From an uncultured Gammaproteobacteria bacterium (lineage in GTDB: Bacteria > Patescibacteriota > Microgenomatia > UBA8517), in contig CAZBTH010000002.1 in NCBI GenBank assembly GCA_964494885.1, forward strand, positions 29,271 to 93,270: 64,000 bases of DNA. Direction: 5' to 3'. Of this stretch, positions 11,389 to 62,581 are shown piece by piece (position 1 is the first letter of the stretch; every line of letters starts with the position of its first letter). The position numbers were made by a program, and so were the translations under genes. Under the pieces are notes generated by a model. The model was given only the letters and a program-made list of their open reading frames with translations. It did no database searches and was not told the origin of the DNA.

Positions 11389-11390
11389 AT

Positions 11391-11599: not shown

Positions 11600-11625
11600 A
11601 CTATAATAATATATATTATTATAGT
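11600..11625. repeat. Perfect 26-bp A/T-only palindrome ACTATAATAATATATATTATTATAGT, 7 bp downstream of the yerC-like stop
   Basis: The reverse complement is identical; a second copy (24 of 26 identical) lies at 12085-12110. Confidence 0.8.
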
Positions 11626-11631
11626 TAGAGG

Positions 11632-20316: not shown

Positions 20317-20351
20317 TTAAATATTTTAGTTCTCTTACCAACTGTCTACAA

Positions 20352-20379
20352 TACTTTAATGATCTAGATCGTTAAAGTA
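20352..20379. repeat. 28-bp near-palindrome TACTTTAATGATCTAGATCGTTAAAGTA, 18 bp downstream of the second yerC-like gene
   Basis: Palindromic apart from one T/G position; the GATCTAGATC core is repeated in inverted form at 20853-20876. Confidence 0.7.
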
Positions 20380-20397
20380 TTTGCAGCAAAACTAGCC

Positions 20398-20844
20398 CTA
20401 GATTCCCTTCTTAAAACGGCTGATGTTTTTATTTCTTTGAAACACTTTTTTGTGATATTCACTTAAGGGTAAACCTTTTATTGGAATATTGAACATGCTT
20501 TGGATTTCCTCCCAAATTATTCTGGCCGAATCCCGCTTTAAAACATTCCCAACCACTTCATTCGTTCCCTTTTCTCCATACTTTATATGCAAATTCATTT
20601 TGGCAATCGTCGCCGTGGTAACATGCAAGATCCTTTTGATTTCCTCGTAACTGTTTCCTTTTGCCAAAAGTACTGCCAAAGCAAATCGTTTTGCCAACAT
20701 TATTTTTTCGGTAGGGGATAAGAAGTCATTTAGAAATATATCAAATTTCTCTTTGTTTTTGATTGAAAGAAGCGATTCACTAAAGAGGTTGAATATCCTA
20801 TCCCAAACTTCCGGTCTTAATTTAAACCTCGAAACCATTGTCAT
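20398..20844 (-). CDS. TrpR-like DNA-binding protein, YerC/YecD family (paralog 2)
   Basis: LSPTEKIMLAKRFALAVLLAKGNSYEEIKRILHVTTATIAKMN; same length and collinear with 11632-12078. Confidence 0.65.
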   Translation of the reverse strand: MTMVSRFKLRPEVWDRIFNLFSESLLSIKNKEKFDIFLNDFLSPTEKIMLAKRFALAVLLAKGNSYEEIKRILHVTTATIAKMNLHIKYGEKGTNEVVGNVLKRDSARIIWEEIQSMFNIPIKGLPLSEYHKKVFQRNKNISRFKKGI

Positions 20845-20852
20845 ATTAATAG

Positions 20853-20876
20853 TATATTGATCTAGATCATTAAACT
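20853..20876. repeat. Palindromic site TATATTGATCTAGATCATTAAAC, about 8 bp upstream of the second yerC-like start; includes a TATACT -10-like hexamer on the minus strand
   Basis: Shares TTTAATGATCTAGATC, in inverted orientation, with 20352-20379. Confidence 0.65.
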
Positions 20877-21004
20877 AAATGGGCTTAAAAAATCGTGATT
20901 ATTTATTAGGACATCAGCAGATGGTATCCGACAAAAATTCTAAAAAAGAATTTTCAGGTTAAGGTATTCTAGAAATTAAAGATTCTAATACCATCAAGTA
21001 AATA

Positions 21005-47200: not shown

Positions 47201-48319
47201 TTAGGATCCGATTTTGAATTCCACAACATCACCGTCATGTATTACGTAGTCGCGGCCCTCGCTCGTCACCTTTCCGGCCTCGCGGGCGGCTTTCCAGCCG
47301 CCAGCTTTAACGAACTCGTCAAATCTGATTACATCTGATTTGACAAATTTTTTAATAAAATCCGTATGAATTACACCGGCGGCTTCCTGCGCACTGATAC
47401 CTACCGGTATCGTCCACGCCCTCACTTCCTTCTCCCCCGCTGTTAGAAAGGTAATAAGACCTAACGTTTTAAATGCTTTCTGAATTAAACGCTCAAGTCC
47501 CGATTTTTTAATTCCAAGATCCTCCATGTATATTTTTTGGTCTTCGTTAGAAAGTTCCGCAAGTTCGCTTTCGGTTTTGGCGCAAATTGCCACAACTTGA
47601 TCGGGGCTTAATTTAAGCTTTTCGGCAAACGAAATTTCCAAATCATGAGCGTTAACCAGATCTTTTTCATCCACATTTAAAACCACCAGTATGGATTTTG
47701 CAGTCAAAAGCCCCAGTTCCTTGGCCATTCTTTGCTCGTCTCCGGTCACTGCTATCATTCGAATGGTAGAAGAGGAATTAAGTGCCTGTTTGAATTTTTG
47801 AATTATCTTCCAACGATCTTTCAACTCCTTATCTGGAGTGTTTCCCGGATCTTTCTGTTTTTCAAGAGTTTGAAGATCTGCAAGGGCAAGTTCTGTTTCG
47901 ACAACTTCTAAATCAGTTTTAGGATCTGAAACGCCTCGTTTGACAATATCAGGGTCGCTAAACGCGCGAAGAACAAAACAAATTGCGTTGGTTTCCCTAA
48001 TGTGACTTAAAAATTTATTCCCCAACCCCTCCCCTTTTGAAGCGCCGGCAATAAGCCCTGCAATATCGACAAATTGAACGACCGCCGGAACTTCCGGCGG
48101 GAGCGAAACCCTGAGCGAAGTCGAAGGGTTCAACTCTTTTGCCACTACTTCCGCTAATTGAGGTAAACGTTCATCCGGCACAGGTACAATCCCTATATTT
48201 GGTTCAATAGTGGCAAAAGGAAAATTGGCAACATACGCTTGTTGCTTTTTAAGCAGAGCGTTAAAAAGTGTACTTTTGCCTACATTTGGAAGACCCACTA
48301 TTCCGACGCTCAATCCCAT
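47201..48319 (-). CDS. ychF: Ribosome-binding ATPase YchF (Obg-like GTPase family)
   Basis: MGLSVGIVGLPNVGKSTLFNAL G1 motif; C-terminal TGS domain. Confidence 0.9.
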   Translation of the reverse strand: MGLSVGIVGLPNVGKSTLFNALLKKQQAYVANFPFATIEPNIGIVPVPDERLPQLAEVVAKELNPSTSLRVSLPPEVPAVVQFVDIAGLIAGASKGEGLGNKFLSHIRETNAICFVLRAFSDPDIVKRGVSDPKTDLEVVETELALADLQTLEKQKDPGNTPDKELKDRWKIIQKFKQALNSSSTIRMIAVTGDEQRMAKELGLLTAKSILVVLNVDEKDLVNAHDLEISFAEKLKLSPDQVVAICAKTESELAELSNEDQKIYMEDLGIKKSGLERLIQKAFKTLGLITFLTAGEKEVRAWTIPVGISAQEAAGVIHTDFIKKFVKSDVIRFDEFVKAGGWKAAREAGKVTSEGRDYVIHDGDVVEFKIGS

Positions 48320-49892
48320 GTTCCAAGTATTGGGTATTTATTGGTATGTTTATCCATGTATTTACCTCTCCTCCTTTCTTAATGACTATTTTACTCACTA
48401 AATCCCTTAATACCAAGTCCTTATTTGAAAAGTCCTGTGATTTTAATACCTCCTTTGCTGCTTCATAAAGTAAAGATTTTTCAGTTTCATTAATGGTAAT
48501 TTTTACGGGTTTAAATTTAAGAAGTTTTTTAAGTTTTATTTCAAAGTTTAATTTCTTTTCCTTTACCTGCTTCATTAACCCCCTAAGTTGATCAATATCT
48601 ATCAAATTTTCTGCATACATTTGGGCAAATTTATTCTCTTGATCAAACAAATTAGATATTTTTGCCTTAGTTGTAAGAATATCTTGCTCTAAAGATAGAT
48701 TGACTTGTGATCTGCTCTCGGCATAATCCGTTATCTTTTGTTTAAGAAAAACATCATCAGATATTATGTTTTTAATGTGATTCCACCAAAGCCCCTCAAT
48801 TACAAAAACATTCACCCCCTCGCAATCACATGTTCTTAATTCATTTCTTCTCACCTTATCGCTACTTCTGTAATATCTTTGCGATCCTTGCTTTCCATCA
48901 CCAACCATAGGGAAACCATGTTCACAAAAGAATTTACCTGTGAGCAAATAGTTATATTTCTTGTTCTTGTGAGCAAATTTTTTGTTGTAATTTAATAATT
49001 CCAAGGACTTATTAAAAAGGAACTTATCATCAATAAGAACTGGAACATCAAACGGAATCCACTCTTCTTTTGGTCTTACCCTTCTGCTATTTTTCTTTAC
49101 TCTGATATATTTTTCATTTTTAATTCGTTTTTTACTTACAACTGATTCTGATTTATTGTAATAAGCAACGCCAGTAAAATATGTTTCGCAACACAAGATT
49201 CTACCTACTGGTCCTTTTGTCCAATATTTACTTTTACCCTTTTTTGTAGGAATACATTGGTCGGACAATTTTTTTATGATTTCATGAATACTCATCTTTT
49301 CAACAACAAACCAGTGAAAAATATTTTTAACAACATTACTTTCAAATTCATCTATTTCCCAATGTGTTGGAGTAGTTTCCGTTTTTTTAATGTATTTATA
49401 TCCATACAAAGCTGAACCATTGATTACTATTCCATTCTTTGCCTTATATAACTTCCCCCTTCTCATCCTCTCAATAATTTTTACTCTTTCATATTCATGA
49501 AAAACTCCCTGCATTGCTTGTAATACCTTTTCCTCAGGGGTATCAGCCTTGGTATCGTGCAACGATATAAATGAAACGTCATGGTCTTTCAATTCCTCAA
49601 TGATTACTTCCTGATGCGCAAACCTTCGGGACAATCTGCCACGATCATATACATACAAAGAGGTAAATTTCCCAACTACAGCAGCATCCCTCATCCTGTC
49701 TAAATCGGGTCGTGCTATTAGTTCCCCAGTCCAGCCATCATCAATAAATATATTTTCATCAGGAAGAATATTAGCGTCTTGAGCAATTTTTAACTTTAAT
49801 TCATCTATTTGAGATTCAATTGTAGCTTCTTGTTCTTGCCTTCCAGTAGAAACTCTTGCATACAAGGCAACTATCTTTCTGTCATTGTTCAT
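48261..49892 (-). CDS. Large serine recombinase (serine integrase)
   Basis: N-terminal resolvase domain with VALYARVSTGRQ catalytic Ser; recombinase domain; Cys-rich zinc-ribbon region; 543 aa; the C-terminal 59 nt overlap the ychF start. Confidence 0.85.
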   Translation of the reverse strand: MNNDRKIVALYARVSTGRQEQEATIESQIDELKLKIAQDANILPDENIFIDDGWTGELIARPDLDRMRDAAVVGKFTSLYVYDRGRLSRRFAHQEVIIEELKDHDVSFISLHDTKADTPEEKVLQAMQGVFHEYERVKIIERMRRGKLYKAKNGIVINGSALYGYKYIKKTETTPTHWEIDEFESNVVKNIFHWFVVEKMSIHEIIKKLSDQCIPTKKGKSKYWTKGPVGRILCCETYFTGVAYYNKSESVVSKKRIKNEKYIRVKKNSRRVRPKEEWIPFDVPVLIDDKFLFNKSLELLNYNKKFAHKNKKYNYLLTGKFFCEHGFPMVGDGKQGSQRYYRSSDKVRRNELRTCDCEGVNVFVIEGLWWNHIKNIISDDVFLKQKITDYAESRSQVNLSLEQDILTTKAKISNLFDQENKFAQMYAENLIDIDQLRGLMKQVKEKKLNFEIKLKKLLKFKPVKITINETEKSLLYEAAKEVLKSQDFSNKDLVLRDLVSKIVIKKGGEVNTWINIPINTQYLEHGIERRNSGSSKCRQKYTF

Positions 49893-49893
49893 T

Positions 49894-50055
49894 TTATTTT
49901 ATAATTAACATCTTCTTCAGTTCGTTTTCGTTTATCCTCCACATTTTCCCAAATTTTACTGCAGGAATTTGTTTTCTTCTTGCCATACGATACACAGTTT
50001 GTTTATTAACCTTTAGTTTTCGTGCAACCTCATCAAGAGTAAGATATTGATCCAT
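49894..50055 (-). CDS. Excisionase/AlpA-like HTH DNA-binding protein (53 aa). Absent from the ORF track because it is under 60 aa
   Basis: Minus-strand translation MDQYLTLDEVARKLKVNKQTVYRMARRKQIPAVKFGKMWRINENELKKMLIIK; HTH_17/excisionase pattern; its stop is 1 nt from the integrase start. Confidence 0.55.
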   Translation of the reverse strand: MDQYLTLDEVARKLKVNKQTVYRMARRKQIPAVKFGKMWRINENELKKMLIIK

Positions 50056-50234
50056 ATATACTTATTTATACTTTAGTGTATTTTAGCGACATGTTAGAGT
50101 CAATGGTCTTTTCCCTTATTTTTGCCAGCAATTTGTCAAACATATCAAAATAAAATCTGTTAATTATTTGAGCATCCTCTTCATTCCCCTGAGGAAAAAA
50201 ATAAAATTTAAGCTTTCTAACCTTGTTCATATAT

Positions 50235-50630
50235 TTAAAAATCATTAATCACATTTTTAGAGGGACATGAAACTTCATAGCATTTTGATATTTGAGGATC
50301 TGGAAAGTTAGGTTTAGCAATCCAATCTTTTTTGTGCAGAAGATCTTCCTTAGCTTCCAGTGCTAATTCTTTAACTTTATTAAGATTACCCCCTTTTAAT
50401 GCCTCTCTTTGCTCGTAAAATCGCTTACAAGCCCTTGATAAAGAAACCTTATGGCAATAGTCATTCCAAACACTAATTCTTCTTTGATTCTCTATAGAAG
50501 AAATTTGTATTTTGCCACATTCGCACTTCATCTCCGAGTTATCATAAGACATCAACCACTTGTGGTTGTGTTTAGGAATGTTTGGGTGTGTAAATCTAAC
50601 GCTCATGAATATTTGCCTTTCCAATTTCAT
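50235..50630 (-). CDS. Hypothetical protein (element cargo)
   Basis: ORF; Cys pairs. Confidence 0.35.
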   Translation of the reverse strand: MKLERQIFMSVRFTHPNIPKHNHKWLMSYDNSEMKCECGKIQISSIENQRRISVWNDYCHKVSLSRACKRFYEQREALKGGNLNKVKELALEAKEDLLHKKDWIAKPNFPDPQISKCYEVSCPSKNVINDF

Positions 50631-51360
50631 TAGCTACGTTCATCAAATCAAAACCCTTTTCAACCCAAAAACGATCTTTTTCCATCCAATCAATTTGTCT
50701 ATTTACTGCATCAAATAAATATCCAGCAGCTAAGAGTTTATGAAGAGCGTTAATTTGCTTACCAAAATTAGGAAATTTTACCCCCCTACTTTCGGCAAAA
50801 CTATTAACAAATTCTATACACCCACCATGTCCTTCATTTACATTGGGGCACTTGTGTTTCTTATTAGAATTATTTTCTTCACGATCACTTTTAAGTGAAG
50901 AGTGAATCAAACCATTGTTTTCATTATTATATTTATTGTTAGTGGTTGGTGGTTGGTTATCGGTAGGTTGTTTTGGTGGTTTAAGAGTCGGTTCCTCTGT
51001 TGAATAATTATTGAAGAAAATTCCGTCAGCAAGGTATTTTCCGATGGTGTATTGGGTGGTTGATCCAACGGTTGTTATTAAATTAAGACGCTCTAATTTT
51101 TTGTATAAACTTCTATATTCTTGTTCTGATATACCAACTCTTTCTGAGGTATTTTTTCTACCTGTTACGAACTCCCTAACTTTTAGGCTAATCAACTTGC
51201 CGTTATACTCAATATCTGCATCATCTCTTCTTGACCTTTCGGCAAATTCATAAAGCAACCTAAAAGCTTTAGGATTCGTTCTTATCCAATCTGGCATGTT
51301 TTTGGTTCTCGCGCCCTGTATCCAACTGTCGGGTCTGATACCTAATTCTGCTTTTTTCAT
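50596..51360 (-). CDS. Putative replication-initiator-like protein (N-terminal winged-helix-like region, low-complexity middle)
   Basis: N-terminal basic helix region; Asn/Pro/Thr-rich linker; translationally coupled to an upstream small zinc-ribbon ORF. Confidence 0.35.
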   Translation of the reverse strand: MKKAELGIRPDSWIQGARTKNMPDWIRTNPKAFRLLYEFAERSRRDDADIEYNGKLISLKVREFVTGRKNTSERVGISEQEYRSLYKKLERLNLITTVGSTTQYTIGKYLADGIFFNNYSTEEPTLKPPKQPTDNQPPTTNNKYNNENNGLIHSSLKSDREENNSNKKHKCPNVNEGHGGCIEFVNSFAESRGVKFPNFGKQINALHKLLAAGYLFDAVNRQIDWMEKDRFWVEKGFDLMNVANEIGKANIHER

Positions 51361-51530
51361 TCCGCTCCCTCCTCTCTTTTTATGGGAACAAGAATGTAAC
51401 CTTTGCCTTTACACGCATGGCAAATAAGCGTGCCATATTTGAGCGTTCCAAAGCTATTGCAAACTGGACACTTTTGAGCAATGTGCGTAGCTTTAGGGCT
51501 TTCATTAAATGTATTTTGTGTGTTTTGCAT
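51357..51530 (-). CDS. Small zinc-ribbon protein (57 aa), translationally coupled by an ATGA overlap to 50596-51360
   Basis: Minus-strand MQNTQNTFNESPKATHIAQKCPVCNSFGTLKYGTLICHACKGKGYILVPIKREEGAE; GGAGGGAG SD for the downstream gene lies inside its 3' end. Confidence 0.35.
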   Translation of the reverse strand: MQNTQNTFNESPKATHIAQKCPVCNSFGTLKYGTLICHACKGKGYILVPIKREEGAE

Positions 51531-51955
51531 TTAACCATTAAAAAAGACACAGTTAGAAACTTGTTAAATCTCTTGGCTGTGCCTGGTCAAATGCTCAATA
51601 TGGAGCGTGAATCGGGCTAAATGCCTATTTGATTAGTATTAAGAAGAAGAGTCTGGAGCTTAATTATCATTCTTTGCTTCAATCCCTCCCTCTATCCAGC
51701 TAAATTTTTATACCCTTTTAAAGTTGATGTCAACTAGATATTCCAAAACCTCAAGTATGGGGTAGGTATAGTTCAATTATCAAACCTATTGCTTAGCAAT
51801 ATAGTCATTACACTTACACAGAGGGTAGCCTACAATTTGTCAAAGCTATTGTATTGGAGTTGTATTGTTGTTGTAGATGGCAAGATACGAAGCTTTAGCC
51901 TTGAGATGAGAGGGGTCGTTGGCATATTTGGGTGTAGTCCCCATACACAAAAGCC

Positions 51956-52603
51956 CTAGTTACTTTGAGGTCTAACAACACAAGAGGTTTGATACCAAAC
52001 TGGAATAAATTTGCTTTCTTTATAAATATATCTAGTGGTTTTATACTCCCCCGTATTCCAATCTACATTTTCATTTAAGAAAAAACCATTATTATCTCCA
52101 ACTTCTTTGATATAAACATTTGCTCCCTTAGCTTTGAAAACTACATATCCATCTTTAACAATTACAGCTAAATTTGGTGTGTGATTCATAGCAATATCAG
52201 CAGAGAGTATCCTTTCATTCTTTTGATCATTATCTACATCAAATTTTCTTTCTATCCACGCATCATTTGGAAGAACCACATATAATTCTTCACCATATGG
52301 AGATTTTGTAGGATCAAACTTCTCTTTTAATGGAAGAGTTTCTTCACTTGAATTTACTAATTTTGGTGGATACGTAACCATCACTTCATTAAAAATATTT
52401 GAAAAATATTCTTTTGGAAAGTTTTTATCCATGTAATGTGGACAATTAACGCTAACTAATTGAGATTTTTGAATATCATCAAACTGACTTGATTTTATTG
52501 CTCCAGATAATATAAGTGTTCCTATTATTGAAACGGTTGACAACAATATGTAGGATAAGTATTTTCTCACTTGCATTGTGGAAAAACTAAAATTTTTGAG
52601 CAT
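51956..52603 (-). CDS. Secreted/membrane-anchored hypothetical protein
   Basis: N-terminal hydrophobic segment. Confidence 0.4.
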   Translation of the reverse strand: MLKNFSFSTMQVRKYLSYILLSTVSIIGTLILSGAIKSSQFDDIQKSQLVSVNCPHYMDKNFPKEYFSNIFNEVMVTYPPKLVNSSEETLPLKEKFDPTKSPYGEELYVVLPNDAWIERKFDVDNDQKNERILSADIAMNHTPNLAVIVKDGYVVFKAKGANVYIKEVGDNNGFFLNENVDWNTGEYKTTRYIYKESKFIPVWYQTSCVVRPQSN

Positions 52604-52770
52604 CCTTGACCCGTTAAGTTATTTACTTTTGCACCCCAACCGAGTGGACTGTATGAATATCTATTTAACCAGATCAATAAACAAAGAAGCAAAACAATAA
52701 TTATAAGTATAATTTTTGTGAAATATCTTTTATCTAATATTGATTTTGCAATTTTAATCCATTTAAACAT
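52567..52770 (-). CDS. Small membrane protein
   Basis: Single TM helix. Confidence 0.3.
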   Translation of the reverse strand: MFKWIKIAKSILDKRYFTKIILIIIVLLLCLLIWLNRYSYSPLGWGAKVNNLTGQGCSKILVFPQCK

Positions 52771-52811
52771 AGTGCTATTATTTATTAAATAAAATGCTCA
52801 GTTAGTATTAA

Positions 52812-53504
52812 TTATTTCAATTTAAATATGAATTTACCGACAATGTTTTTTCTATCAATTTGATTAACGTCTTTTTCTCTTTTATCAAACATGATTAAAT
52901 ATTTATTTTCTTCCAATTTAATATCAATAATTTTATCGTCCTCCCAGCCTGACCAATCTACATAGGGCTCATTCAACAAATCCCCATTCACAATTACCTC
53001 TCCTTTTTTTAATATTAAATTTTCATTAGGTAAGCCGATAATTCTTCCCATAATTGATCCACCGCTATTTGATCTATACTCAACAACATCACTTCGTTTT
53101 GGATCTATCAATTTGTAAGAAATAACACTCACAAGGTAATACTCATCATTTTTATATGCGGGTTCCATTTTTTGCCCAGTAACTATTGCGTATCTTGCAA
53201 CAAATATGGGGGTTAAAAAGATAATCCCCGTCAATATCAACATTGAAACAAGAATTATTTTTATAATTTTATTTACAGACAAAAATAACCACCATAAAAA
53301 CGACAAACCCCCTATTACCAAAGATAAGAGTATTGTAAGTGTAATTATATTGAGAGTATCTCCACTTTGATTACCAGAAACCTCCATCATTAACCAAACA
53401 ATTGAGAGAATAAATAAAAAAACAGATATCAACCAAACCTTTAGTAAGATTTTCTTTTTGGGGTTCTTTTGTTGTGTAAGAACTTGTTTGTCTTCATTGG
53501 TCAT
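52812..53504 (-). CDS. S26 signal-peptidase-I-like protein with 3 N-terminal TM helices; canonical catalytic Ser/Lys positions appear substituted
   Basis: TGQKMEPAY aligns to box B SGSMxPTL with Ser replaced; GRIIGLPNENLILKKGEVIVNGDLLNEPY matches boxes D/E but lacks the Lys. Confidence 0.5.
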   Translation of the reverse strand: MTNEDKQVLTQQKNPKKKILLKVWLISVFLFILSIVWLMMEVSGNQSGDTLNIITLTILLSLVIGGLSFLWWLFLSVNKIIKIILVSMLILTGIIFLTPIFVARYAIVTGQKMEPAYKNDEYYLVSVISYKLIDPKRSDVVEYRSNSGGSIMGRIIGLPNENLILKKGEVIVNGDLLNEPYVDWSGWEDDKIIDIKLEENKYLIMFDKREKDVNQIDRKNIVGKFIFKLK

Positions 53505-53599
53505 ATATCAACTGTTATTTCCTATTATAAGAGCTATACCTCAATAAATGCAAGATATATCTGGTAAAGATTTATTTTGGAATCTACTACCCTTAGGGT

Positions 53600-53812
53600 A
53601 TGAATTACCAACCGATTTATAGAAAGTTAGGTGAAAGGATTGAGTGGTTTCGTAAGGAAAAGGGGTTAACGCAAGAAGAACTAGCTGAAAAAGCGGGACT
53701 ACATAGGGCTTATTTTTGGGATATTGAAAAAGGAAGAAATATCTCAATAAGAACCGCATATAACCTATCAAAAGCACTTGGAGTATCACTCTCCGAATTA
53801 TTCAATATTTGA
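53600..53812 (+). CDS. XRE-family HTH transcriptional regulator
   Basis: GLTQEELAEKAGLHRAYFWDIEKGRNISIRTAYNLSKALGVSLSELF. Confidence 0.75.
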   Translation: MNYQPIYRKLGERIEWFRKEKGLTQEELAEKAGLHRAYFWDIEKGRNISIRTAYNLSKALGVSLSELFNI

Positions 53813-53818
53813 TAATTC

Positions 53819-54118
53819 TTAAAAAGCATCTTCTGTGCCAATTGGAGGATCAAATACTGGAGCAGGCGTTACTGGTGTCGGAATGTTTGGCATCGTAGGT
53901 TTAGGTCTAGGGCTTCTTGAAACTGGTAATATTTGAAAAGTATTGCGTAATGCATAATAAAATCCGTTCCTCTCAAAAAGTTGTCCCAAAAAACTCCCAG
54001 TTGGACTCCAGATATAATTTTGATTGTCTAACCAACCTAAATACTCGCCATCCCATCTAAAAATATTATTCTGATCCGTAAACGCTAAATATTTTCCACT
54101 CGTTTTATATATATTCAT
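53819..54118 (-). CDS. Hypothetical protein
   Basis: ORF; 4-bp overlap with the protease gene. Confidence 0.35.
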   Translation of the reverse strand: MNIYKTSGKYLAFTDQNNIFRWDGEYLGWLDNQNYIWSPTGSFLGQLFERNGFYYALRNTFQILPVSRSPRPKPTMPNIPTPVTPAPVFDPPIGTEDAF

Positions 54119-54840
54119 GTTTTTTTATTTCTAGATCCTTTGATTTTATTGTTTAAATTTAATGCTTTACTTATTATCTTGTGTTCTGGTATATAACTTG
54201 CGGGTATGGCATACCCAATACCAAGTTGCAAATTACTCATAAGTGCTTTGTAAATATCAACTAAATCTACACTATGTATTGATATAGCACCTGAATACAT
54301 TTTATTGACTTTGTCTAGTATTTCCTTTCCTTCTCTTCTTTGAGCATTAACTACACCAATTACACTACCATCTTCAGCCAATAAAGGACAACCACTATTC
54401 CCTGGGTTGACGGTTCCATCAATCAGATAAGTGGTAACACCAGTAGCGTCTTGTGTTATAGAGGATATGATACCCCGATGAGTAGTCAAATCATCTAAGT
54501 CAAGAGGGTAACCAGAAAACAGAACTTCTATACCAGGCTTTACATCGCCCTCAAATTTTATCAATGGTTTTCGGTCTGAATCTTGAATACCCAGCAAGGC
54601 TAAATCATGCTCTTCGTCTCTTAACAATACTTTGGCTACTCTGAATTCACTATCATCCTGAAACTTAACAAAATTAATATACTCTGAACCTAGAATCACA
54701 TGATTACAGGTAACTATAATTCCCGATTTGAAATAAACAAAGCCTGTGCCAGTCCCTACGGATTTCTTAATGTTGGGGTCAAAAGTTATTATTTTCGCAA
54801 CACTATTTCTAATTTTCAATATAGTGTTTGAGGAATCCAT
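54115..54840 (-). CDS. Trypsin-like (S1/chymotrypsin-fold) serine protease
   Basis: Catalytic triad context TCNHV (His), DLALL (Asp), GNSGCPL (Ser). Confidence 0.7.
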   Translation of the reverse strand: MDSSNTILKIRNSVAKIITFDPNIKKSVGTGTGFVYFKSGIIVTCNHVILGSEYINFVKFQDDSEFRVAKVLLRDEEHDLALLGIQDSDRKPLIKFEGDVKPGIEVLFSGYPLDLDDLTTHRGIISSITQDATGVTTYLIDGTVNPGNSGCPLLAEDGSVIGVVNAQRREGKEILDKVNKMYSGAISIHSVDLVDIYKALMSNLQLGIGYAIPASYIPEHKIISKALNLNNKIKGSRNKKT

Positions 54841-55087
54841 TAATTCAGATTATACAGATAAAATATGGTTATTAAAAGATCAATAAAAGAAACTTTTATA
54901 TTAAGAATTACTTTTTGTCTAGTTTTAATATAAAAAGGGTTGTATTTTTGATTGTTTAATCCTTCCAAAGTTATCTCTTGATAAAATTAATCTAGCTTTA
55001 CAAGGTTCTGGCAATATAAATGAAGAAACCAATTCTATTTTTGGAATAGTGAACTGTATGTTCCCACAGATAAACTCATATGAAGTA

Positions 55088-55366
55088 TTATACCGCAATT
55101 GCCTTTTGTTCCAATTTGGAGACTCTTTTTTCCAATTTATTAAATTCTTCGACAGTCGGGGCATCATCCTCCAAATTTGCCACCTGCAAACCAATCTTGT
55201 CAATTCTCTGTGTAAGGTTCTTATTAACTTTGTCGATCTTATCATTAACACCCTCAAAGCCTTTTTGTGTTTCTTTTCGAAGCTTACCGATTTCACCAAG
55301 CAGTTCAGACTTCATGGCGCTTTGGCCGTTAATTAGCACTCGCAACATTTTCTTTGTGTCGTCCAT
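55088..55366 (-). CDS. Small coiled-coil protein
   Basis: Heptad repeats; I prefer it to the overlapping 54925-55299 ORF. Confidence 0.35.
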   Translation of the reverse strand: MDDTKKMLRVLINGQSAMKSELLGEIGKLRKETQKGFEGVNDKIDKVNKNLTQRIDKIGLQVANLEDDAPTVEEFNKLEKRVSKLEQKAIAV

Positions 55367-55595
55367 GCATTCAATATATCACTTAGTAGTCACCAATTTC
55401 AACGCTATTCAATCCATAAAGAATATCATCAATCTGTCATTCAACTGGTTCGACTTCGATCGCATGGGTCTGTTCAGAAGGGTAAATTTGGAACAGTGAA
55501 AAGACTATCCCGAAAGAAAGCTGTGGCGTGGCTAGATTTTAGCATACTCTCTCCCCTATTTTTACTCCTCAGAAGATTAGTGTATAATTCCCGCC

Positions 55596-58444: not shown

Positions 58445-59074
58445 TCAAGTCCCTAAATCGGTAAACACCACAAGACGTTTACTGTAACTCTTATTTGCTT
58501 TGTCCCACGAGCCATAACAAGTAATAAGATTAAGATGAGCAGCATCGTCTAGCGTGAATATCTCTTCTGCATAACCCGGACTATAAATACGGTTTTCCCG
58601 TACAACAAAAGTGATCAGTTCTCCCTTATTATCCTCTATGAACAATCTGTCTCCTACTTTTAATTTATCTAAATCAAAAAACACACCGGGCTCACCACTC
58701 TTTCCGTCTATATGTCCGTCAATTACAGCGCTTCCTACTGCCCCCGGCACTGTCCCGGAACTAAACCAACCAACGTTGGTAACACTGCTTGGCACGTCCA
58801 TTTCACCATTAGATTTGATTCCCACATATTCAACGTATGTATCAACATTTATAGTTGGAATTATCAAACGTACAGGCAATTTTTCTTCTCTGTTTTGAGA
58901 TTCGTTTGCTAAAACACTGCTGCCAAATTGGGAATACCAAATATTGTTCCATATTTGACCCATAGCAAAAAATAGAATTAGTATAGAAGAAAACAACACA
59001 AAAATTATTTTTATCAAAGATTGTCTTAAGGTTGTTATCTTTATATATTTACGCGATTGAATATCCTTGTACAT
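58445..59074 (-). CDS. Sortase family transpeptidase
   Basis: N-terminal TM helix; VIDGH (His); LNLITCYG (TLxTC); RLVVF (Arg). Confidence 0.7.
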   Translation of the reverse strand: MYKDIQSRKYIKITTLRQSLIKIIFVLFSSILILFFAMGQIWNNIWYSQFGSSVLANESQNREEKLPVRLIIPTINVDTYVEYVGIKSNGEMDVPSSVTNVGWFSSGTVPGAVGSAVIDGHIDGKSGEPGVFFDLDKLKVGDRLFIEDNKGELITFVVRENRIYSPGYAEEIFTLDDAAHLNLITCYGSWDKANKSYSKRLVVFTDLGT

Positions 59075-59087
59075 AGAAGTTGAAAAA

Positions 59088-60056
59088 TTACCGTCTTCTA
59101 ATTTTTACAATTAAAAAGACTATCGACAGTATGAGGAAAGTCGTAATTGACGCATCAAATGGAGTTTCATATAAACTTTTTATGGGGCTAAAAAGATTTT
59201 GGGATGCCGAGGATGCTATTTTCTCAACCAACATCGGTGTTGGAACAGCTGACGGGGTAGCAATTATGGCAGTTGATGGAAGTTTTGCTTTAACCGCCAC
59301 TATCGGCTTTGGTTTAACCATGACTGCCCCCTCTCCCGGAATCGCGTCGGTAAACACTACCAGGCGCTGGGGATAGGTGCCGTTTACCTGATTCCAAATT
59401 CCTTCACACGTTATCAAATTAAGATGGGCAAGCCCGTCACCGGATGTGAAAACAGTTGTGGGATCGGCGTTTCGGTCAAAAGATTGCACCGCTCTTACCA
59501 TAAACGCAAGAGTTTCGCCTTTGTCATTTAATACATATACCTTATCGCCAATTTTAAGTTTATCTAAGTTATAAAAAACAAATGGTACCCCATTACTTAT
59601 ACCGAAGTGTCCCCCGATAACCGAACTCCCCACCTGACCCGGATGAGGACCAAGAGAAAACCAGGCGACGTTTACCGAACCTATGGGAACATCCATTCTT
59701 CCATCATTTGTAATAAGTGCATCCTCAACTACCGAATCTACACCTATAGTCGGGATTTGAAGACGTACCGGAAGCCCCCGGGGAATCCCACCTGGGTCCC
59801 TAATGCTGGAATATGCAAGCTGGGAGCCGGGACTAATTGATACATCAAAAAGCGGAGGGGAACCGACATTTGCAATATTGCCCGTTGTTGGAGCAAATTT
59901 TGTTTTTGGAAATCTCCATCCAAAAGATTTGTCAGTGAATACATTTACAGAGCTATTTTGATTAATAACATTTGGCAACCAAAAAAAACCTGCGCCAAAG
60001 ACTCCAATCAATGCTGATGTAAATACGATAAATTTGGTTAAATTTGATATCTTCAT
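59088..60056 (-). CDS. Sortase family transpeptidase (paralog) with an extended N-terminal region
   Basis: VIGGH, LNLITCEG, RLVVF; the N-terminal region contains SPPLFDVSISP, shared with the upstream substrate-like gene. Confidence 0.7.
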   Translation of the reverse strand: MKISNLTKFIVFTSALIGVFGAGFFWLPNVINQNSSVNVFTDKSFGWRFPKTKFAPTTGNIANVGSPPLFDVSISPGSQLAYSSIRDPGGIPRGLPVRLQIPTIGVDSVVEDALITNDGRMDVPIGSVNVAWFSLGPHPGQVGSSVIGGHFGISNGVPFVFYNLDKLKIGDKVYVLNDKGETLAFMVRAVQSFDRNADPTTVFTSGDGLAHLNLITCEGIWNQVNGTYPQRLVVFTDAIPGEGAVMVKPKPIVAVKAKLPSTAIIATPSAVPTPMLVEKIASSASQNLFSPIKSLYETPFDASITTFLILSIVFLIVKIRRR

Positions 60057-60964
60057 CGCTTTCTACGGGTTAAAAAGTAAACTATGACTAACACCGCCAA
60101 AATGCCGGACAGAATGGCCCACACTACAATTTTGGGATTATTAGTTACCAGCATAAGAGGACTGATAGATACATCAAAAAGTGGAGGGGATTTTGCATTT
60201 GGATTGTCGACTTTAACGGATAAAGTGGCCATGCCCTCCGCTTTTAATCCATTGGCATAAGCTGTAACAGTAACAGTGTCTGTGGTCGTTTGCCTTATTG
60301 GCATTGTACATGAATAAATCCAGACTTCATTTATATCTAAAAGTTGGTTGCCATTAGTGTCCCCCAATTTTCCTGACATTGCGCTACATTTATCATCAGT
60401 GACTGCTACATCATTTAAAGACACCAAGCCGGGATTATTTACTTTATACGTATATGTTATATCGCTCCCGCCTTCCGGCAAGACCAACGGGTACTCAACT
60501 TTTGTGGTGTTAATTATACTCACAAGAGGTGGCAGATTTTTAGAACCGACCACAACTGTTGAGTAAGCTTTGTGTGTTGCAGTTGTGTTGTTAGCAATAC
60601 CTGTGGCAGTTGCAGTATTTTTAGTTGTACTGGAGATCGTGGTGGTACAGTTAAATCTCCATGTTTCACTATAGTCGAGTTTGGAATTATTGTTATCGTC
60701 CCCTGTTACAAATTTAACAGACCCGCATTTGTCATCGACAACATTTACGTTGCTCAATGGTACCTCCGGGAGAAAATTTTTAACCGCGTAGTTGTAAATT
60801 ACATTACCTCCGCCACTGGGAAGATTTAAAGGTGTCGGCACTGAGGTAATGCCTATCAAGGGAACATACAGCACGCTTTCACTTTCCTGCGCTGAAACAT
60901 CTCTCACTAAAAAAGCAAACTGCGTTAAAAAAGTTAGCAGTACCGCCACAAACTTTATTTTCAT
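60053..60964 (-). CDS. Secreted surface protein with a C-terminal TM anchor and basic tail (RRKR); candidate sortase substrate without a canonical LPXTG
   Basis: Signal peptide; Thr-rich repeats; C-terminal hydrophobic segment plus RRKR. Confidence 0.5.
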   Translation of the reverse strand: MKIKFVAVLLTFLTQFAFLVRDVSAQESESVLYVPLIGITSVPTPLNLPSGGGNVIYNYAVKNFLPEVPLSNVNVVDDKCGSVKFVTGDDNNNSKLDYSETWRFNCTTTISSTTKNTATATGIANNTTATHKAYSTVVVGSKNLPPLVSIINTTKVEYPLVLPEGGSDITYTYKVNNPGLVSLNDVAVTDDKCSAMSGKLGDTNGNQLLDINEVWIYSCTMPIRQTTTDTVTVTAYANGLKAEGMATLSVKVDNPNAKSPPLFDVSISPLMLVTNNPKIVVWAILSGILAVLVIVYFLTRRKR

Positions 60965-60968
60965 TGCA

Positions 60969-62270
60969 TCAAGTGCGTTTTAGCTTGAGTAAGAAGAATG
61001 AAAACAGGAAGACTCCTCCTACAAGCGTGTACCACGGAATATTGTTTCTCTGAGAACTAAAACCTGTATTTGGAAGACAAGGGACCAAAGGATTGCCCGT
61101 AGTCGGACATGGCGCACTTGCAGTACCCCCAACAAGTTTAGCCGGCCCATAGCTACCTATCGCGCAATCATTTCTACCGGCAATTTGGAACCACATAGGC
61201 TGGTTTGCAGGTAAATTATTTATTGTAGTCGAAAATCCTGTGACGTTGGTATTGTATAACCAATTCGCGTTTGAAGGACCGTACTGAATATTAAAACTGT
61301 CTACACCCGAGTTGGGACCCCAGCTTAAAAAGATACTTGTGGAGCTTACCCTTCTCGAATCTATTATACTCAGAGCAACCAGTGTACTTGGAAGCGGAGG
61401 GCAGGATATTTCAGCCGGTCCGGCCGCAGAAGTGGTTGTTGTTGATGTGGTTGTGGCAGTTGTAGTTGCAGCTGCGGCACATGACGGGTTATTAACCGTT
61501 GTATTTCTAAAAGTAATTGCGGCCGTTTGAGCCAAGACTCTTCCATTAACAGTCGCTCCACCCGCGGGGAAGTCGACCGACGCTTGCGCCAAGACAGTCC
61601 CTTCAAATGTGGTGGTTCCGTTAAAAGTCGCAGAAGATCCGACTGTCCAAAATACATTACAAGACTGCACTCCTCCGCTTAGAAGTACTCTACTTCCCGT
61701 ATCGGTAATAAGCGTGGATGCCATACGGAATATAAAAATGGAATCTGCATCACCACTAAGTGTGAGGTCTCCTGTCAAATTAGTAGTGTCAGCCGGTACA
61801 TCATAAACACCTTGCGTTAAGGTTTGACCGCCAAGTTGAGCCAAAAGAGTTGTGTCGGCCGATCTCCCGTTGAGATCGGTAACAACTGCCGTCGCGTCCG
61901 TTTGACCTTGCAGTGCAACTGCATTCTGATACTGAATAGTGCCATTATTTATAGTTCCATTTGTCGTAACCCCAGTACAAGGACTGGGGAAACCTGTACA
62001 CGTAGCAGGGCTATCTAACCCCATATCACCATCGTTAAGTACAGTTCCGGCGACATCATTGGTAATTGTAGATTTTGCCAAAGCGGCAAAGTTATCTACA
62101 GTCAGTAACGAAACCGCTGCCGGATTTGAATATGCTTGAGCCTTAGGTATTGGCACAAAAACAAATTGCACAAAGACCATTAGAACTACTGCCAAAATTT
62201 TCTTTATTATATTTAATGTTTTCATTGTAATCTCCCTGAAACAATCTCGACCAGCTGAACTATCCCCCAT
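60969..62270 (-). CDS. LPXTG-type cell-surface protein (LPNTG, then a hydrophobic segment, then a KLKRT tail)
   Basis: Signal peptide; Thr/Ala/Ser-rich low-complexity regions; classic sorting signal at the C-terminus. Confidence 0.6.
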   Translation of the reverse strand: MGDSSAGRDCFREITMKTLNIIKKILAVVLMVFVQFVFVPIPKAQAYSNPAAVSLLTVDNFAALAKSTITNDVAGTVLNDGDMGLDSPATCTGFPSPCTGVTTNGTINNGTIQYQNAVALQGQTDATAVVTDLNGRSADTTLLAQLGGQTLTQGVYDVPADTTNLTGDLTLSGDADSIFIFRMASTLITDTGSRVLLSGGVQSCNVFWTVGSSATFNGTTTFEGTVLAQASVDFPAGGATVNGRVLAQTAAITFRNTTVNNPSCAAAATTTATTTSTTTTSAAGPAEISCPPLPSTLVALSIIDSRRVSSTSIFLSWGPNSGVDSFNIQYGPSNANWLYNTNVTGFSTTINNLPANQPMWFQIAGRNDCAIGSYGPAKLVGGTASAPCPTTGNPLVPCLPNTGFSSQRNNIPWYTLVGGVFLFSFFLLKLKRT

Positions 62271-62581
62271 GCAAGTACGGCATAAACAACCATGGCAACA
62301 AGTGTGGCCGGCTCAAGAACCGCCGTGACTTCTACCCCCGGAGTGGTTGCCTGACGAAATATTCCGACAAAAGGCATAATAAATATTTGTGTTAATGAGT
62401 TTATAAAACTTACAAAGCCGCTTGCGGGGTTTGCTCCGGTCATCTTGAATACAGTGCGGAATACCAATAACACCTCGATTATTCCAAAAAGGAAATAAAT
62501 CAAATATTGAAGAGTCTGCGAACTATCTGCTTGTTCTTCCCCCGCCGATATTGTTGTTTTTCTTGTTATAGTGTCTATCAT
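62222..62581 (-). CDS. Small membrane protein (possibly YggT-like)
   Basis: Two or three TM helices; weak similarity only. Confidence 0.3.
   Translation of the reverse strand: MIDTITRKTTISAGEEQADSSQTLQYLIYFLFGIIEVLLVFRTVFKMTGANPASGFVSFINSLTQIFIMPFVGIFRQATTPGVEVTAVLEPATLVAMVVYAVLAWGIVQLVEIVSGRLQ

What the first reader, a model, noticed from the sequence alone, without database searches (positions are those of the whole stretch)
48261..55590. Serine-recombinase integrative element inserted at, and overlapping, the 5' end of ychF
A 543-aa large serine recombinase (48261-49892) is immediately preceded by an unannotated 53-aa excisionase/AlpA-type HTH gene (49894-50055). Then come a Rep-like protein with a coupled zinc-ribbon ORF, a 420-bp non-coding stretch with palindromes, an XRE regulator, an S26-like peptidase, a trypsin-like protease and secreted proteins. 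There are no capsid or terminase genes. The recombinase C-terminus overlaps the first 59 nt of ychF, including the P-loop codons, so the element end and attachment site must lie inside or right at the ychF start. The element may supply the ychF promoter or 5' end. Integrative elements of this type are poorly described in this kind of organism.
Basis: partly seen in the sequence, partly recalled or inferred. Interest (0 to 1): 0.6.

Follow-up and report, generated by a model that had tools for sequence, protein, structure and literature searches.

The report
Serine-recombinase mobile element inside ychF
A 6.76-kb mobile element sits inside codon 6 of the conserved ychF gene of a groundwater Woesebacterium; it rebuilds the start of ychF, and insertion splits its own recombinase gene, a design shared by at least about ninety, probably over a hundred, related elements.

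Summary
A large serine recombinase (LSR, 48261-49892, minus strand) with an adjacent excisionase-type HTH gene ends 59 nt inside ychF.

I found the other end. At 55114-55061 lie the displaced native ychF promoter, its ATG and its first six codons. Crossover is at a GG (ychF nt 16-17; 48304/3 and 55064/3), so the element is 6760 bp, not 7330.

The element carries its own ATG and codons 2-6 of ychF, in synonymous codons, hidden out of frame in the 3' end of the LSR gene. ychF therefore stays intact but loses its leaderless promoter.

attP lies inside the LSR gene. Integration removes a conserved ~45-aa C-terminal segment and replaces it with out-of-frame ychF sequence.

Among the top 120 LSR homologues, 89 pass a strict test for this ychF-derived tail, about 20 more match by eye, and 4 carry the conserved tail. 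About 35 orphan tail fragments sit at attL junctions elsewhere.

Most related species have an empty site, and cargo varies.

It is not a phage. No excised or empty form of this copy was found. What the tail does is inferred, not shown.

Verdict: a new variant of a known kind, of moderately high interest.

The parts
48261..49892 (-). Large serine recombinase, integrated (truncated) form, 543 aa. The last 14 codons (48302-48261, stop included) are chromosomal ychF sequence read out of frame.
   Evidence: Pfam and PHROG hits. The catalytic motif YARVSTGRQ has S15 invariant in a 41-sequence alignment. An AF2 model of homologue P0044 matches full-length SPbeta, phiC31 and Bxb1 integrases at E 1e-18 to 1e-14.
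48276..48331 (-). attR: P arm (48305-48331), central GG (48304-48303), B' arm (48302-48276, the ychF P-loop codons).
   Evidence: Comparison with attL and with empty sites in relatives. The hexamer TTGGAA sits at -23..-18 and TTCCAA at +13..+18.
48305..48319 (-). Element-borne substitute ychF start: ATG plus codons 2-5 (GGA TTG AGC GTC), embedded out of frame in the LSR 3' end.
   Evidence: It encodes M-G-L-S-V against the native M-S-L-S-V, with a different codon at every position.
47201..48319 (-). ychF (372 aa), a chimeric gene: nt 1-15 come from the element and nt 18 onward from the chromosome.
   Evidence: Pfam MMR_HSR1 and YchF-GTPase_C; synteny ychF-rpsF-ssb-rpsR-S41 in 80 relatives.
55036..55091 (-). 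attL: B arm (55065-55091, native ychF 5' end and -10 box), central GG (55064-55063), P' arm (55062-55036).
   Evidence: A degenerate ychF-5' pattern matches only here and at the real ychF start; 0.00 matches are expected by chance. TTCCAA sits at +18..+23.
55065..55114 (-). Displaced native ychF promoter (-35 TTGGAA 55114-55109; -10 TATAAT 55092-55087), ATG (55079-55077) and codons 2-5. It now points into the element.
   Evidence: It ties for the best score on the promoter scan at 10/12. The 18-nt string GGTATAATACTTCATATG is identical to the ychF upstream region of relative L042. Spacing matches the leaderless arrangement seen in about 55 of 74 relatives.
54925..55062 (-). Detached 3' end of the LSR gene: 45 codons plus stop (IQFTIPKIELVSSFILPEPCKARLILSRDNFGRIKQSKIQPFLY*). 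It joins the LSR ORF in frame only in the excised circle, giving 575 aa.
   Evidence: In-frame reconstruction. The motif is conserved in 4 full-length LSRs and about 35 orphan attL ORFs. dN<dS.
49894..50055 (-). HTH_17 / excisionase-family DNA-binding protein; candidate recombination directionality factor.
   Evidence: It sits next to the LSR in L018, L032, L071, L102 and L108.
50066..50630 (-). Two small ORFs (59 aa and 131 aa) of unknown function.
   Evidence: No family hits. The 59-aa ORF has a 46%-identical homologue in the L071 element.
50596..51530 (-). Putative replication module: a 254-aa DnaD-like / replication-O-like protein and a coupled 57-aa zinc-ribbon ORF.
   Evidence: PHROG 2514 at 1.9e-10 and PHROG 345 at 8e-4; 4-nt ORF overlap.
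51531..51955 (.). 425-bp non-coding stretch; possible origin or regulatory region.
   Evidence: No credible ORF; only short direct and inverted repeats; no Rfam match.
51956..53504 (-). Cargo: 215-aa and 67-aa membrane or secreted proteins and a signal-peptidase-I family protein with an N-terminal multi-TM extension.
   Evidence: TIGR02227 at 66 bits, above its cut-off; Peptidase_S26.
53600..53812 (+). XRE-family regulator (70 aa).
   Evidence: HTH_3 at 4.2e-15.
53819..54840 (-). Cargo operon: Trypsin_2 protease (241 aa) and a Bflower-domain protein (99 aa), downstream of the displaced ychF promoter.
   Evidence: No terminator-like site lies between 55079 and 54840.

Best explanation
This is a 6760-bp integrative element of a Candidatus Woesebacteria (Microgenomates, CPR) genome, inserted by its own large serine recombinase (LSR) into codon 6 of ychF.

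Shown by sequence:
- attL and attR share only GGAA.
- The central dinucleotide is the GG of the first P-loop glycine codon.
- Reconstructed attB is the native leaderless promoter, the ATG and MSLSVGIVGLPNVGKS.
- Reconstructed attP (TTGGAA-N17-GG-N17-TTCCAA) lies inside the 3' end of the LSR gene.
- The P arm doubles as a synonymous copy of the ychF start (ATG GGA TTG AGC GTC), so integration leaves ychF full length. Only residue 2 changes, S to G.
- Integration separates ychF from its promoter and places it behind, and overlapping, the LSR gene.
- The displaced host promoter now faces the element's protease/Bflower operon.
- Integration also cuts the LSR gene. The free circle would encode a 575-aa enzyme with a conserved ~45-aa beta-strand tail. 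The integrated copy encodes 543 aa, ending in ychF sequence read out of frame.

Inferred:
- The LSR recombines attP with attB by the standard 2-bp staggered cut and subunit rotation.
- The HTH_17 protein helps excision.
- The DnaD-like protein, zinc ribbon and non-coding stretch allow plasmid-like replication of the circle.
- The tail swap lets the recombinase differ between the free and the integrated state, for example by tuning integration against excision, or stability.

The element belongs to a large family of ychF-targeting elements in Microgenomates with variable, partly defence-like cargo.
For: Domains of the LSR, HTH_17, XRE and cargo.

GC drop across the element.

The same junctions occur in independent ENA, JGI and Logan assemblies at >=99.97% identity.

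Far end. The degenerate ychF-5' pattern hits only 48288-48319 and 55048-55079, with 0.00 expected. A promoter at 55114-55087 ties for the top scan score. Its sequence matches the ychF upstream region of relatives.

Sporadic distribution. Six of 80 species representatives have an LSR abutting ychF. The closest relative, L016, has o393, 840 bp and then ychF, with no element.

Independent replicates of a displaced promoter plus ychF 5' end: L033 at -6161 and L039 at -4821; L055 and L067; and two such junctions on contig L104. L057 keeps a detached tail only.

LSR-type att architecture. The ZD hexamer sits 5 bp closer to the centre in B' than in P/P'. It is a perfect 6/6 match in the window, and the best offset is +13/+14 in 8 of 9 sites. 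This is the published LSR hallmark (PMC3783163).

Family. 747 homologues at E<=1e-30. Of the top 120, 89 pass a strict test for an out-of-frame ychF tail, about 20 more pass by eye, and 4 have the conserved tail.

Tail. It is conserved across 38 sequences (invariant P, I, R, G; near-invariant F, F, D, R, I). dN<dS. It is predicted as three beta strands after a disordered linker.

Variable cargo.
Against: No empty site and no excised circle was found for this particular element.
- Every contig carrying the flanking genes carries the element.
- The predicted empty-site YchF allele (G2S) is absent from about 15 billion proteins.
- The attP junction is absent from IMG/VR.
- The two JGI scans were uninformative. 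They missed even attL and attR, although JGI contigs are known to carry them.

This copy may therefore be fixed and its activity is unproven.

The four 'full-length' LSRs need not come from free circles. At least one (P0016 on L104) sits in what looks like a tandem array, and L102 has no terminal overlap.

How ychF is transcribed and translated from attR is unclear. There is no -10 box or Shine-Dalgarno at the right distance, and only a 9/12 promoter-like site inside the LSR gene.

The replication assignment rests on a weak PHROG hit only.

No function of the tail has been tested, and it has no Pfam match.
Confidence: 0.85

Rival explanations
1. This copy is a fixed, no longer mobile island. 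It arrived by LSR integration but is now a permanent part of the chromosome in this lineage, kept for its cargo or because ychF expression depends on it.
For: All population contigs carry it and are near-identical. The empty-site YchF allele is not found. No attP or attB junction was recovered. Decayed versions exist in relatives: L039 and L090 keep only a P-arm scar with a new promoter and no LSR.
Against: The LSR ORF is intact and all family-invariant catalytic residues are present. The detached tail is still an open, motif-bearing 45-codon frame. Both att arms are intact, with a perfect ZD hexamer. The HTH_17 gene is intact.
Confidence: 0.3
2. It is a phage satellite (PICI-like) that relies on a helper phage for packaging and transfer, rather than an integrative plasmid.
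For: It has the typical satellite size range and layout: integrase, excisionase-like HTH, XRE regulator, replication-type gene, and no structural genes. One family member (L108, CP066693.1) carries a Terminase_2 small-subunit gene.
Against: The window copy has no terminase, capsid-remodelling or packaging gene. No family member was found in IMG/VR. No helper phage is known.
Confidence: 0.15
3. It is a reversible genetic switch of the 'active lysogeny' type. Excision restores the native leaderless promoter to ychF and integration lowers or rewires ychF expression, and this is its main role.
For: Integration separates ychF from its -10 box. In Streptococcus pneumoniae a defective prophage next to ychF lowers ychF expression and its excision raises it (PMC6375853; PMC8637289).
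Against: There are no expression data. The pneumococcal case uses a different integrase class (listed among the tyrosine integrases in PMC8637289) and an intergenic site. Variable cargo and the wide spread of the family fit a selfish mobile element better. No excised state was observed.
Confidence: 0.15
4. The LSR-ychF arrangement is ancestral or an assembly artefact and nothing is inserted.
For: LSR-ychF adjacency recurs in many lineages.
Against: Most relatives lack it. The displaced promoter and 5' end lie exactly 6760 bp away. Cargo varies. The junctions are identical in independent assemblies from three sources.
Confidence: 0.02

Closest known systems
Serine-integrase elements that insert into protein-coding genes (A118/LI in comK, SPbeta in spsM, Bxb1 in groEL1, phiC31, SCCmec CcrAB at rlmH/orfX)
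   Same: Same enzyme class and domain order: catalytic domain, recombinase domain, zinc ribbon with coiled coil. The att sites are short and imperfectly symmetric around a non-palindromic dinucleotide, with the ZD motif shifted 5 bp between attP and attB. The integrase gene sits at one end of the element, and an intragenic conserved target is used.
   Different: Sequence is remote: at most 32% identity to any annotated phage or plasmid LSR, the closest being Wolbachia phage WO, and only the catalytic domain hits PDB by sequence. The named examples either disrupt the target gene or sit at its 3' end (from memory). This element sits at the extreme 5' end and rebuilds the start codon and first codons. 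Its attP lies inside the integrase ORF. The host is a CPR bacterium.
Mycobacteriophage BPs-type integration-dependent immunity (PMC4557955)
   Same: attP lies inside a coding gene of the element, so the integrated and the free state encode proteins with different C-termini.
   Different: In BPs the split gene is the repressor, the integrase is of a different type (tyrosine; from memory), and the lost part is a short ssrA-like degradation tag. Here the split gene is the serine recombinase itself, and the lost part is a conserved ~45-65-aa predicted beta-strand module without an ssrA-like end.
Pneumococcal defective prophage between dnaN/DUF951 and ychF (PMC6375853, PMC8637289)
   Same: The mobile element is integrated immediately upstream of ychF with its integrase next to ychF. 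It has no phage structural genes, and integration rearranges the ychF promoter and changes ychF expression.
   Different: Its integrase is listed among the tyrosine integrases (PMC8637289). It has a 14-bp direct-repeat core in the intergenic promoter region, is about 18 kb long, does not replace coding sequence, and occurs in Firmicutes.
Islands that restore the gene they target by carrying a copy of its end (e.g. tRNA/tmRNA-targeting islands, phage 21/e14 in icd; from memory)
   Same: The element carries a surrogate copy of the interrupted gene end, so the host gene remains functional.
   Different: Those elements restore 3' ends, usually by near-identical DNA. This one restores a 5' end, including the start codon, using synonymous codons (8 of 15 nt identical), and removes the promoter.

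Membership tests
Large serine recombinase (serine integrase) | N-terminal resolvase-type catalytic domain with the nucleophilic serine and conserved arginines | tested here: met
   PF00239 at 9.1e-28. YARVSTGRQ with R13, S15, Q19, R68, D69, R86 and R89 invariant in a 41-sequence alignment. TP901-1 catalytic domain hit.
Large serine recombinase (serine integrase) | Recombinase domain followed by a zinc-ribbon domain with an inserted coiled coil | tested here: met
   PF07508 at 4.8e-11. Zn_ribbon_recom scores 23 bits, just under its 25.3 cut-off. Cysteines C323 and C355 are invariant. The AF2 model of homologue P0044 shows long helices 368-489 and matches full-length SPbeta, phiC31 and Bxb1 integrases and the LI integrase C-terminal fragment at E 1e-18 to 1e-11.
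Large serine recombinase (serine integrase) | attP and attB of about 40-50 bp, imperfect dyads around a non-palindromic central dinucleotide, with the ZD motif 5 bp closer to the centre in attB | tested here: met
   Central GG. TTGGAA at -23..-18 and TTCCAA at +18..+23 in attP; TTCCAA at +13..+18 in attB'. The rule is taken from PMC3783163.
Large serine recombinase (serine integrase) | Catalyses attP x attB recombination | not testable with these tools
   Requires an in vitro or in vivo recombination assay.
Site-specific integrative mobile element | Presence/absence polymorphism at one chromosomal site among related genomes | tested here: met
   Six of 80 species representatives are occupied, several carry scars, and the rest are empty. 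This was not met within the same population.
Site-specific integrative mobile element | Excised circular form with an attP junction | tested here: inconclusive
   The attP junction is not in IMG/VR. The JGI scans were uninformative. Full-length LSRs exist, but at least one lies in a tandem array, and L102 shows no terminal overlap.
Temperate phage / prophage | Capsid, portal, terminase, tail and lysis genes | tested here: not met
   No structural hit in PHROGs, Pfam or NCBIfam. It is only 6.76 kb. No family member is in IMG/VR.
ICE / IME | Relaxase and oriT (IME), plus a type IV secretion system (ICE) | tested here: not met
   No relaxase, coupling-protein or T4SS family hit for any ORF. Divergent proteins cannot be excluded.
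Phage satellite (PICI-like) | Integrase, regulator, replication gene, and genes that hijack helper packaging (e.g. a small terminase) | tested here: inconclusive
   The first three are present. No packaging gene is in the window copy, but Terminase_2 is present in relative L108.
Integration-dependent C-terminal switch (BPs type) | attP inside an ORF, so that integration changes the protein's C-terminus | tested here: met
   The LSR ORF runs across attP: 575 aa in the reconstructed free form against 543 aa integrated. The same holds family-wide.
Integration-dependent C-terminal switch (BPs type) | The removed part is an ssrA-like degradation tag on the repressor | tested here: not met
   The split gene is the recombinase. 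The tail ends in ..QPFLY..PTISK or ..PEVNL, not in an ssrA-like ..LAA, and is a conserved 45-65-aa module.

The most novel reading that the evidence does not exclude
The recombinase gene is deliberately built across its own attachment site. The free circle makes a full-length enzyme with a conserved, previously undescribed ~45-65-aa C-terminal module. The integrated copy makes a tail-less enzyme. This tail swap acts as a built-in sensor of integration state that controls directionality, activity or stability of a serine integrase, in a family of at least about ninety, probably over a hundred, elements that all target the P-loop glycine codon of ychF in CPR bacteria. These would be the first well-defined integrative elements of that group.
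Probability: 0.4. Interest if true: 0.8.

Novelty: new variant of a known kind. Interest (0 to 1): 0.68.

Why it matters
- Mobile elements of CPR/Patescibacteria are poorly characterised. My literature searches found no paper combining 'large serine recombinase' with 'Patescibacteria' and none linking ychF to serine-recombinase integration. This family gives a precisely bounded, abundant and recognisable class of elements, with exact att sites, in Microgenomates.
- The design is unusual. It targets the most conserved part of a universal gene without destroying it, by carrying a synonymous surrogate 5' end hidden out of frame in the integrase gene. It also takes ychF away from its promoter and hands the host promoter to the element's cargo.
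- Splitting the serine integrase gene at attP, with a conserved detachable tail, suggests a state-dependent control of a serine integrase that I did not find described. It is directly testable with two protein constructs and four att substrates.
- In practical terms, the out-of-frame ychF tail and the orphan 'MLKY…RDxxGRI' ORFs are simple markers for finding and delimiting these elements, their defence-type cargo, and mis-annotated recombinase and hypothetical genes in CPR genomes.
- The family also offers new integrases with a known natural target.

Tried and rejected
1. I first used the ends of Logan unitigs (window 48343 and 55462) as boundary guesses, with an apparent inverted TTGGAAC near 55490. 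The attB pattern predicted from them gave 0 hits, and the later evidence puts the crossover elsewhere. Those contig ends remain unexplained.

2. A four-way degenerate att pattern scanned against JGI metagenomes gave 0 hits, even though it matches attL and attR in the window and JGI contigs are known to carry them.

3. The generic direct and inverted repeat search across the element found no flanking repeats. This is expected for a serine recombinase.

4. I searched for the empty site in the same species. Exact look-ups of ychF, o92 and o393 returned only occupied contigs. The predicted G2S YchF allele is not in the collection.

5. I searched for the excised form. The attP junction is not in IMG/VR. 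The LSR alone and the LSR profile find no family member in IMG/VR. L102-L105 have no terminal overlaps.

6. Rfam found nothing in 47-56 kb.

7. PADLOC gave no defence-system assignment for the cargo beyond generic HTH and protease-domain matches.

8. The tail has no Pfam match. A remembered resemblance of 'RDxxGRI' to the AbrB/SpoVT motif was not supported by any search, so I dropped it.

9. The 365-aa ychF call on L007 is only a different start-codon choice. The DNA is identical.

10. Apparent gene-content 'variants' among population contigs are gene-caller differences. The DNA is >=99.97% identical.

Full report
**1. What is in the window**

The window comes from a Candidatus Woesebacteria (Microgenomates, CPR) genome. 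It was assembled repeatedly from a groundwater metagenome project, PRJNA292723.

On the minus strand the conserved block S41 protease-rpsR-ssb-rpsF-ychF ends with ychF at 47201-48319. Immediately upstream lies a 543-aa large serine recombinase (LSR, 48261-49892). It scores Pfam Resolvase 9.1e-28, Recombinase 4.8e-11, Zn_ribbon_recom 1e-4 and PHROG integrase 1.8e-66. Its last 59 nt overlap ychF.

The genes beyond it are as follows.

| Coordinates | Feature | Evidence |
|---|---|---|
| 49894-50055 | 53-aa excisionase-family HTH | HTH_17 5.5e-16; TIGR01764 above cut-off |
| 50066-50630 | two small unknown ORFs | no family hits |
| 50596-51360 | 254-aa protein, weak DnaD-like / replication-O similarity | PHROG 1.9e-10 |
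| 51357-51530 | 57-aa CxxC ORF, coupled by a 4-nt overlap | |
| 51531-51955 | 425 bp without genes | |
| 51956-52770 | membrane proteins | |
| 52812-53504 | signal-peptidase-I family protein | |
| 53600-53812 (+) | XRE regulator | |
| 53819-54118 | Bflower-domain protein | |
| 54115-54840 | Trypsin_2 protease | |

No phage structural gene is present. GC is 0.28-0.38 here against about 0.41 in the flanks.

**2. Finding the ends**

A serine recombinase leaves no flanking repeat, and none was found. My first guess, taken from contig ends, was wrong.

Comparing the region upstream of ychF in 80 species representatives settled it. In about 55 of 74 usable relatives a -10 box (TGnTAAAAT or TATAAT) ends 6-8 nt before the ychF ATG, which implies a leaderless ychF mRNA. 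In the window and in L018, L032, L033, L061, L071 and L083 this box is replaced by the 3' end of an LSR gene.

The missing piece sits at the far side of the low-GC block. On the minus strand, 55114-55061 reads TTGGAA-16 nt-TATAAT-acttcat-ATG AGT TTA TCT GTG GGA A. It ties for the best score on the promoter scan. It shares the 18-nt string GGTATAATACTTCATATG with the ychF upstream region of L042. It encodes MSLSVG, the consensus YchF start.

A degenerate pattern for this ychF 5' end matches the window only at 48288-48319 and 55048-55079, where 0.00 matches are expected by chance.

The two junctions share only GGAA. The replicate in L033 shares only GG. The crossover dinucleotide is therefore the GG of glycine codon 6, at 48304/48303 and 55064/55063, and the element is 6760 bp. 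The 92-aa gene at 55088-55366 is chromosomal, since homologues lie upstream of ychF in several relatives.

**3. Attachment sites**

The reconstructed attB is …GGTATAATACTTCATATGAGTTTATCTGTG-GG-AATAGTGGGTCTTCCAAATGTAGG…. It restores MSLSVGIVGLPNVGKS.

The reconstructed attP is …ATACTTGGAACATGGGATTGAGCGTC-GG-AACATACAGTTCACTATTCCAAAAATAG…. It is an imperfect dyad, with TTGGAA at -23..-18 and TTCCAA at +18..+23.

In attB' the same TTCCAA (codons Leu-Pro-Asn of the P-loop) lies at +13..+18, which is 5 bp closer to the centre. This 5-bp shift of the zinc-ribbon-domain motif is the published signature that distinguishes attB from attP for serine integrases (PMC3783163). The ZD footprint of ±17-27 at attP is reported in bioRxiv 10.1101/2025.05.02.651858. 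The shift recurs in 8 of 9 occupied or scarred sites examined.

The central GG is non-palindromic. From general knowledge of LSRs, this is what integration polarity requires.

**4. Consequences for ychF**

The P arm of the element contains ATG GGA TTG AGC GTC. This encodes M-G-L-S-V against the native M-S-L-S-V (ATG AGT TTA TCT GTG). Every codon differs, and only 8 of 15 nt are identical.

The element therefore carries a protein-level surrogate of the ychF start, embedded out of frame in its recombinase gene. After integration YchF differs only at residue 2.

ychF does lose its leaderless promoter. It now lies behind, and overlaps, the LSR gene. The only promoter-like site nearby is a 9/12 match at 48416-48388, so how ychF is expressed from attR is open.

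The displaced host promoter now points into the element. First comes a 14-codon ORF, then the Trypsin_2/Bflower operon, with no terminator-like site in between.

An analogous effect is documented in Streptococcus pneumoniae. There a defective prophage next to ychF lowers ychF expression and its excision raises it (PMC6375853; PMC8637289). That element's integrase is listed among the tyrosine integrases, and its site is intergenic.

**5. The recombinase gene is split by integration**

Because attP lies inside the LSR ORF, the integrated enzyme ends in 13 residues of ychF read out of frame (…RRNSGSSKCRQKYTF).

Joined across attP, the ORF instead continues in frame into 55062-54925. That gives a 575-aa protein ending …RRNIQFTIPKIELVSSFILPEPCKARLILSRDNFGRIKQSKIQPFLY.

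This is not noise, for the following reasons.

- Among the 120 best of 747 homologues (44-78% identity; Woese-, Davies-, Roizman- and Shapirobacteria), 89 pass a strict test for an out-of-frame ychF tail and about 20 more pass by eye.
- Four homologues (P0016, P0044, P0069, P0100) carry a tail homologous to the window's detached fragment.
- The same tail is found detached at the far ends of the elements or remnants in L033, L055, L057, L067 and L104.
- A profile of the tail retrieves 53 proteins. About 35 are small orphan ORFs. Many begin MLKY…, which is the displaced -10 box ATGTTAAAATA read as codons, followed by ychF out of frame and then the tail. These are independent attL junctions.
- Across 38 sequences the core (I/V)PFxFxhKhPxPRxxRhIhxRDxxGRIhxS has four invariant and five near-invariant positions. 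There are two length classes, about 45 aa and about 65 aa.
- dN is below dS in every computable pair, although dS is saturated and the block is short.
- In an AlphaFold model of P0044 (mean pLDDT 82), the canonical LSR domains are followed by a disordered linker spanning the attP core (residues 526-537). Three beta strands follow at 542-549, 559-563 and 569-573, with block pLDDT of 62-90.
- The tail has no Pfam match.

The tail is separated from the gene in the integrated state and has no obvious means of expression there. Its conservation implies selection in a state where it is joined to the LSR. That state is the free circle or a tandem array.

**6. What kind of element it is**

It is not a prophage. 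It has no structural genes, it is only 6.76 kb, and no family member is in IMG/VR.

No relaxase or secretion genes were detected, so it cannot be filed as an ICE or IME.

It has an integrase, an excisionase-type HTH, an XRE regulator and a possible replication module. That fits an integrative plasmid-like element or a phage satellite.

Relatives share the LSR and usually the HTH_17 gene, but their cargo differs.

| Locus | Cargo |
|---|---|
| L108 (CP066693.1) | OLD-TOPRIM ATPase plus UvrD helicase (Gabija-like), Terminase_2, AAA_25, DUF5659 |
| L033 | nucleotidyltransferase-like and HNH/AP2 proteins |
| L104 | Fic and Mrr_cat |
| L109 | SNase/Excalibur |

Decay products exist. L039 and L090 keep only the last 15 nt or so of the P arm, with a new TATAAT and no LSR. 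L104 has two attL-type junctions plus a full-length LSR. This suggests tandem accretion, perhaps because the P arm mimics the B arm.

**7. Limits**

I found no empty site or circle for this particular copy. All population contigs are near-identical. Present-day mobility of this copy is therefore inferred only from its intact LSR, tail and att arms.

At least one of the four 'full-length' LSRs is in a tandem array, so free circles are not demonstrated.

The role of the tail, the directionality factor, the replication function and the expression of ychF from attR are all inferences.

**8. Comparison and verdict**

The enzyme meets the LSR definition in every respect that can be tested by computation. 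It is nonetheless remote from characterised members: at most 32% identity, to the Wolbachia phage WO recombinase.

Insertion into conserved genes by serine integrases is well known (PMC10083194). That survey used isolate genomes and does not mention ychF.

The closest conceptual parallel to the split gene is mycobacteriophage BPs, where attP lies in the repressor gene and integration removes an ssrA-like tag (PMC4557955). Here it is the serine recombinase itself that is split, and what is lost is a conserved folded-looking module.

I rate this a new variant of a known kind. It is an ordinary class of enzyme and element, with an unusual and family-wide architecture: 5'-end replacement of a universal gene, promoter capture, and a self-splitting integrase gene. 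The host group has few described mobile elements.

Noticed in passing
L015-L094 (ychF upstream regions); window 55087-55092 with ATG 55079: ychF appears to be leaderless across Microgenomates. A -10 box (TGnTAAAAT or TATAAT) ends 6-8 nt before the ATG in about 55 of 74 relatives. A minority use a Shine-Dalgarno leader instead (e.g. L015, L028, L081).
   Followed up: partly
L108 1661-10001 (CP066693.1): A related ychF-targeting element carries an OLD-TOPRIM ATPase plus a UvrD-type helicase (a Gabija-like pair), a Terminase_2 small subunit, DUF5659 and an AAA_25 protein. So the family carries defence-type cargo and, in this case, a packaging-type gene.
   Followed up: partly
L104 2310-2440, 3520-3700 and 10001-11743: One contig has two promoter+ychF-5'+tail junctions, one of them decayed and fused in frame, together with a full-length LSR. 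This suggests tandem or composite arrays, possibly because attR resembles attB.
   Followed up: partly
L039 5180-10001; L090 about 1320-1368: These are scars of the same insertion without a recombinase. About 15 nt of P arm (aaagga[a/g]aagttggggtATG) is preceded by a new TATAAT. The L039 island (4821 bp) now holds a PMT-like glycosyltransferase and a Kelch-repeat protein.
   Followed up: partly
L067 6900-7226 and about 9100-9260: There is an extra 118-aa N-terminal ychF copy and an attL-type junction upstream of a ychF that still has a native-like promoter. The history is unexplained.
   Followed up: no
window 48343 and 55462: Logan unitigs from several runs start exactly at these positions, 39 nt and 398 nt from the crossover points. 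They do not mark the element ends and I have no explanation for them.
   Followed up: partly
window 53819-54840: A Trypsin_2 protease is translationally coupled to a 'Bflower' (4-fold beta flower) domain protein. The protease matches the protease domains of PADLOC RT-Protease_XI models (1.6e-21). It may be a conflict or defence module, but no system was assigned.
   Followed up: partly
window 54925-55299 (-) and many database entries (P0131-P0173): Gene callers annotate the attL junction as a small hypothetical protein that often starts MLKY…. It is a chimera of the ychF -10 box, the ychF 5' end read out of frame, and the detached recombinase tail. It is likely a systematic mis-annotation in CPR genomes.
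   Followed up: yes
window 1000-3000, 11000-12000, 20000-21000: There are other low-GC stretches (0.34-0.35 against about 0.40) in the composition profile. I did not examine them.
   Followed up: no
window 58445-62500 (via L008 and L095): Next to the insertion site lies a chromosomal cluster of two sortases, a CLIPPER_2-like protein, an Ice_binding-domain protein and a response regulator. It is unrelated to the element.
   Followed up: no
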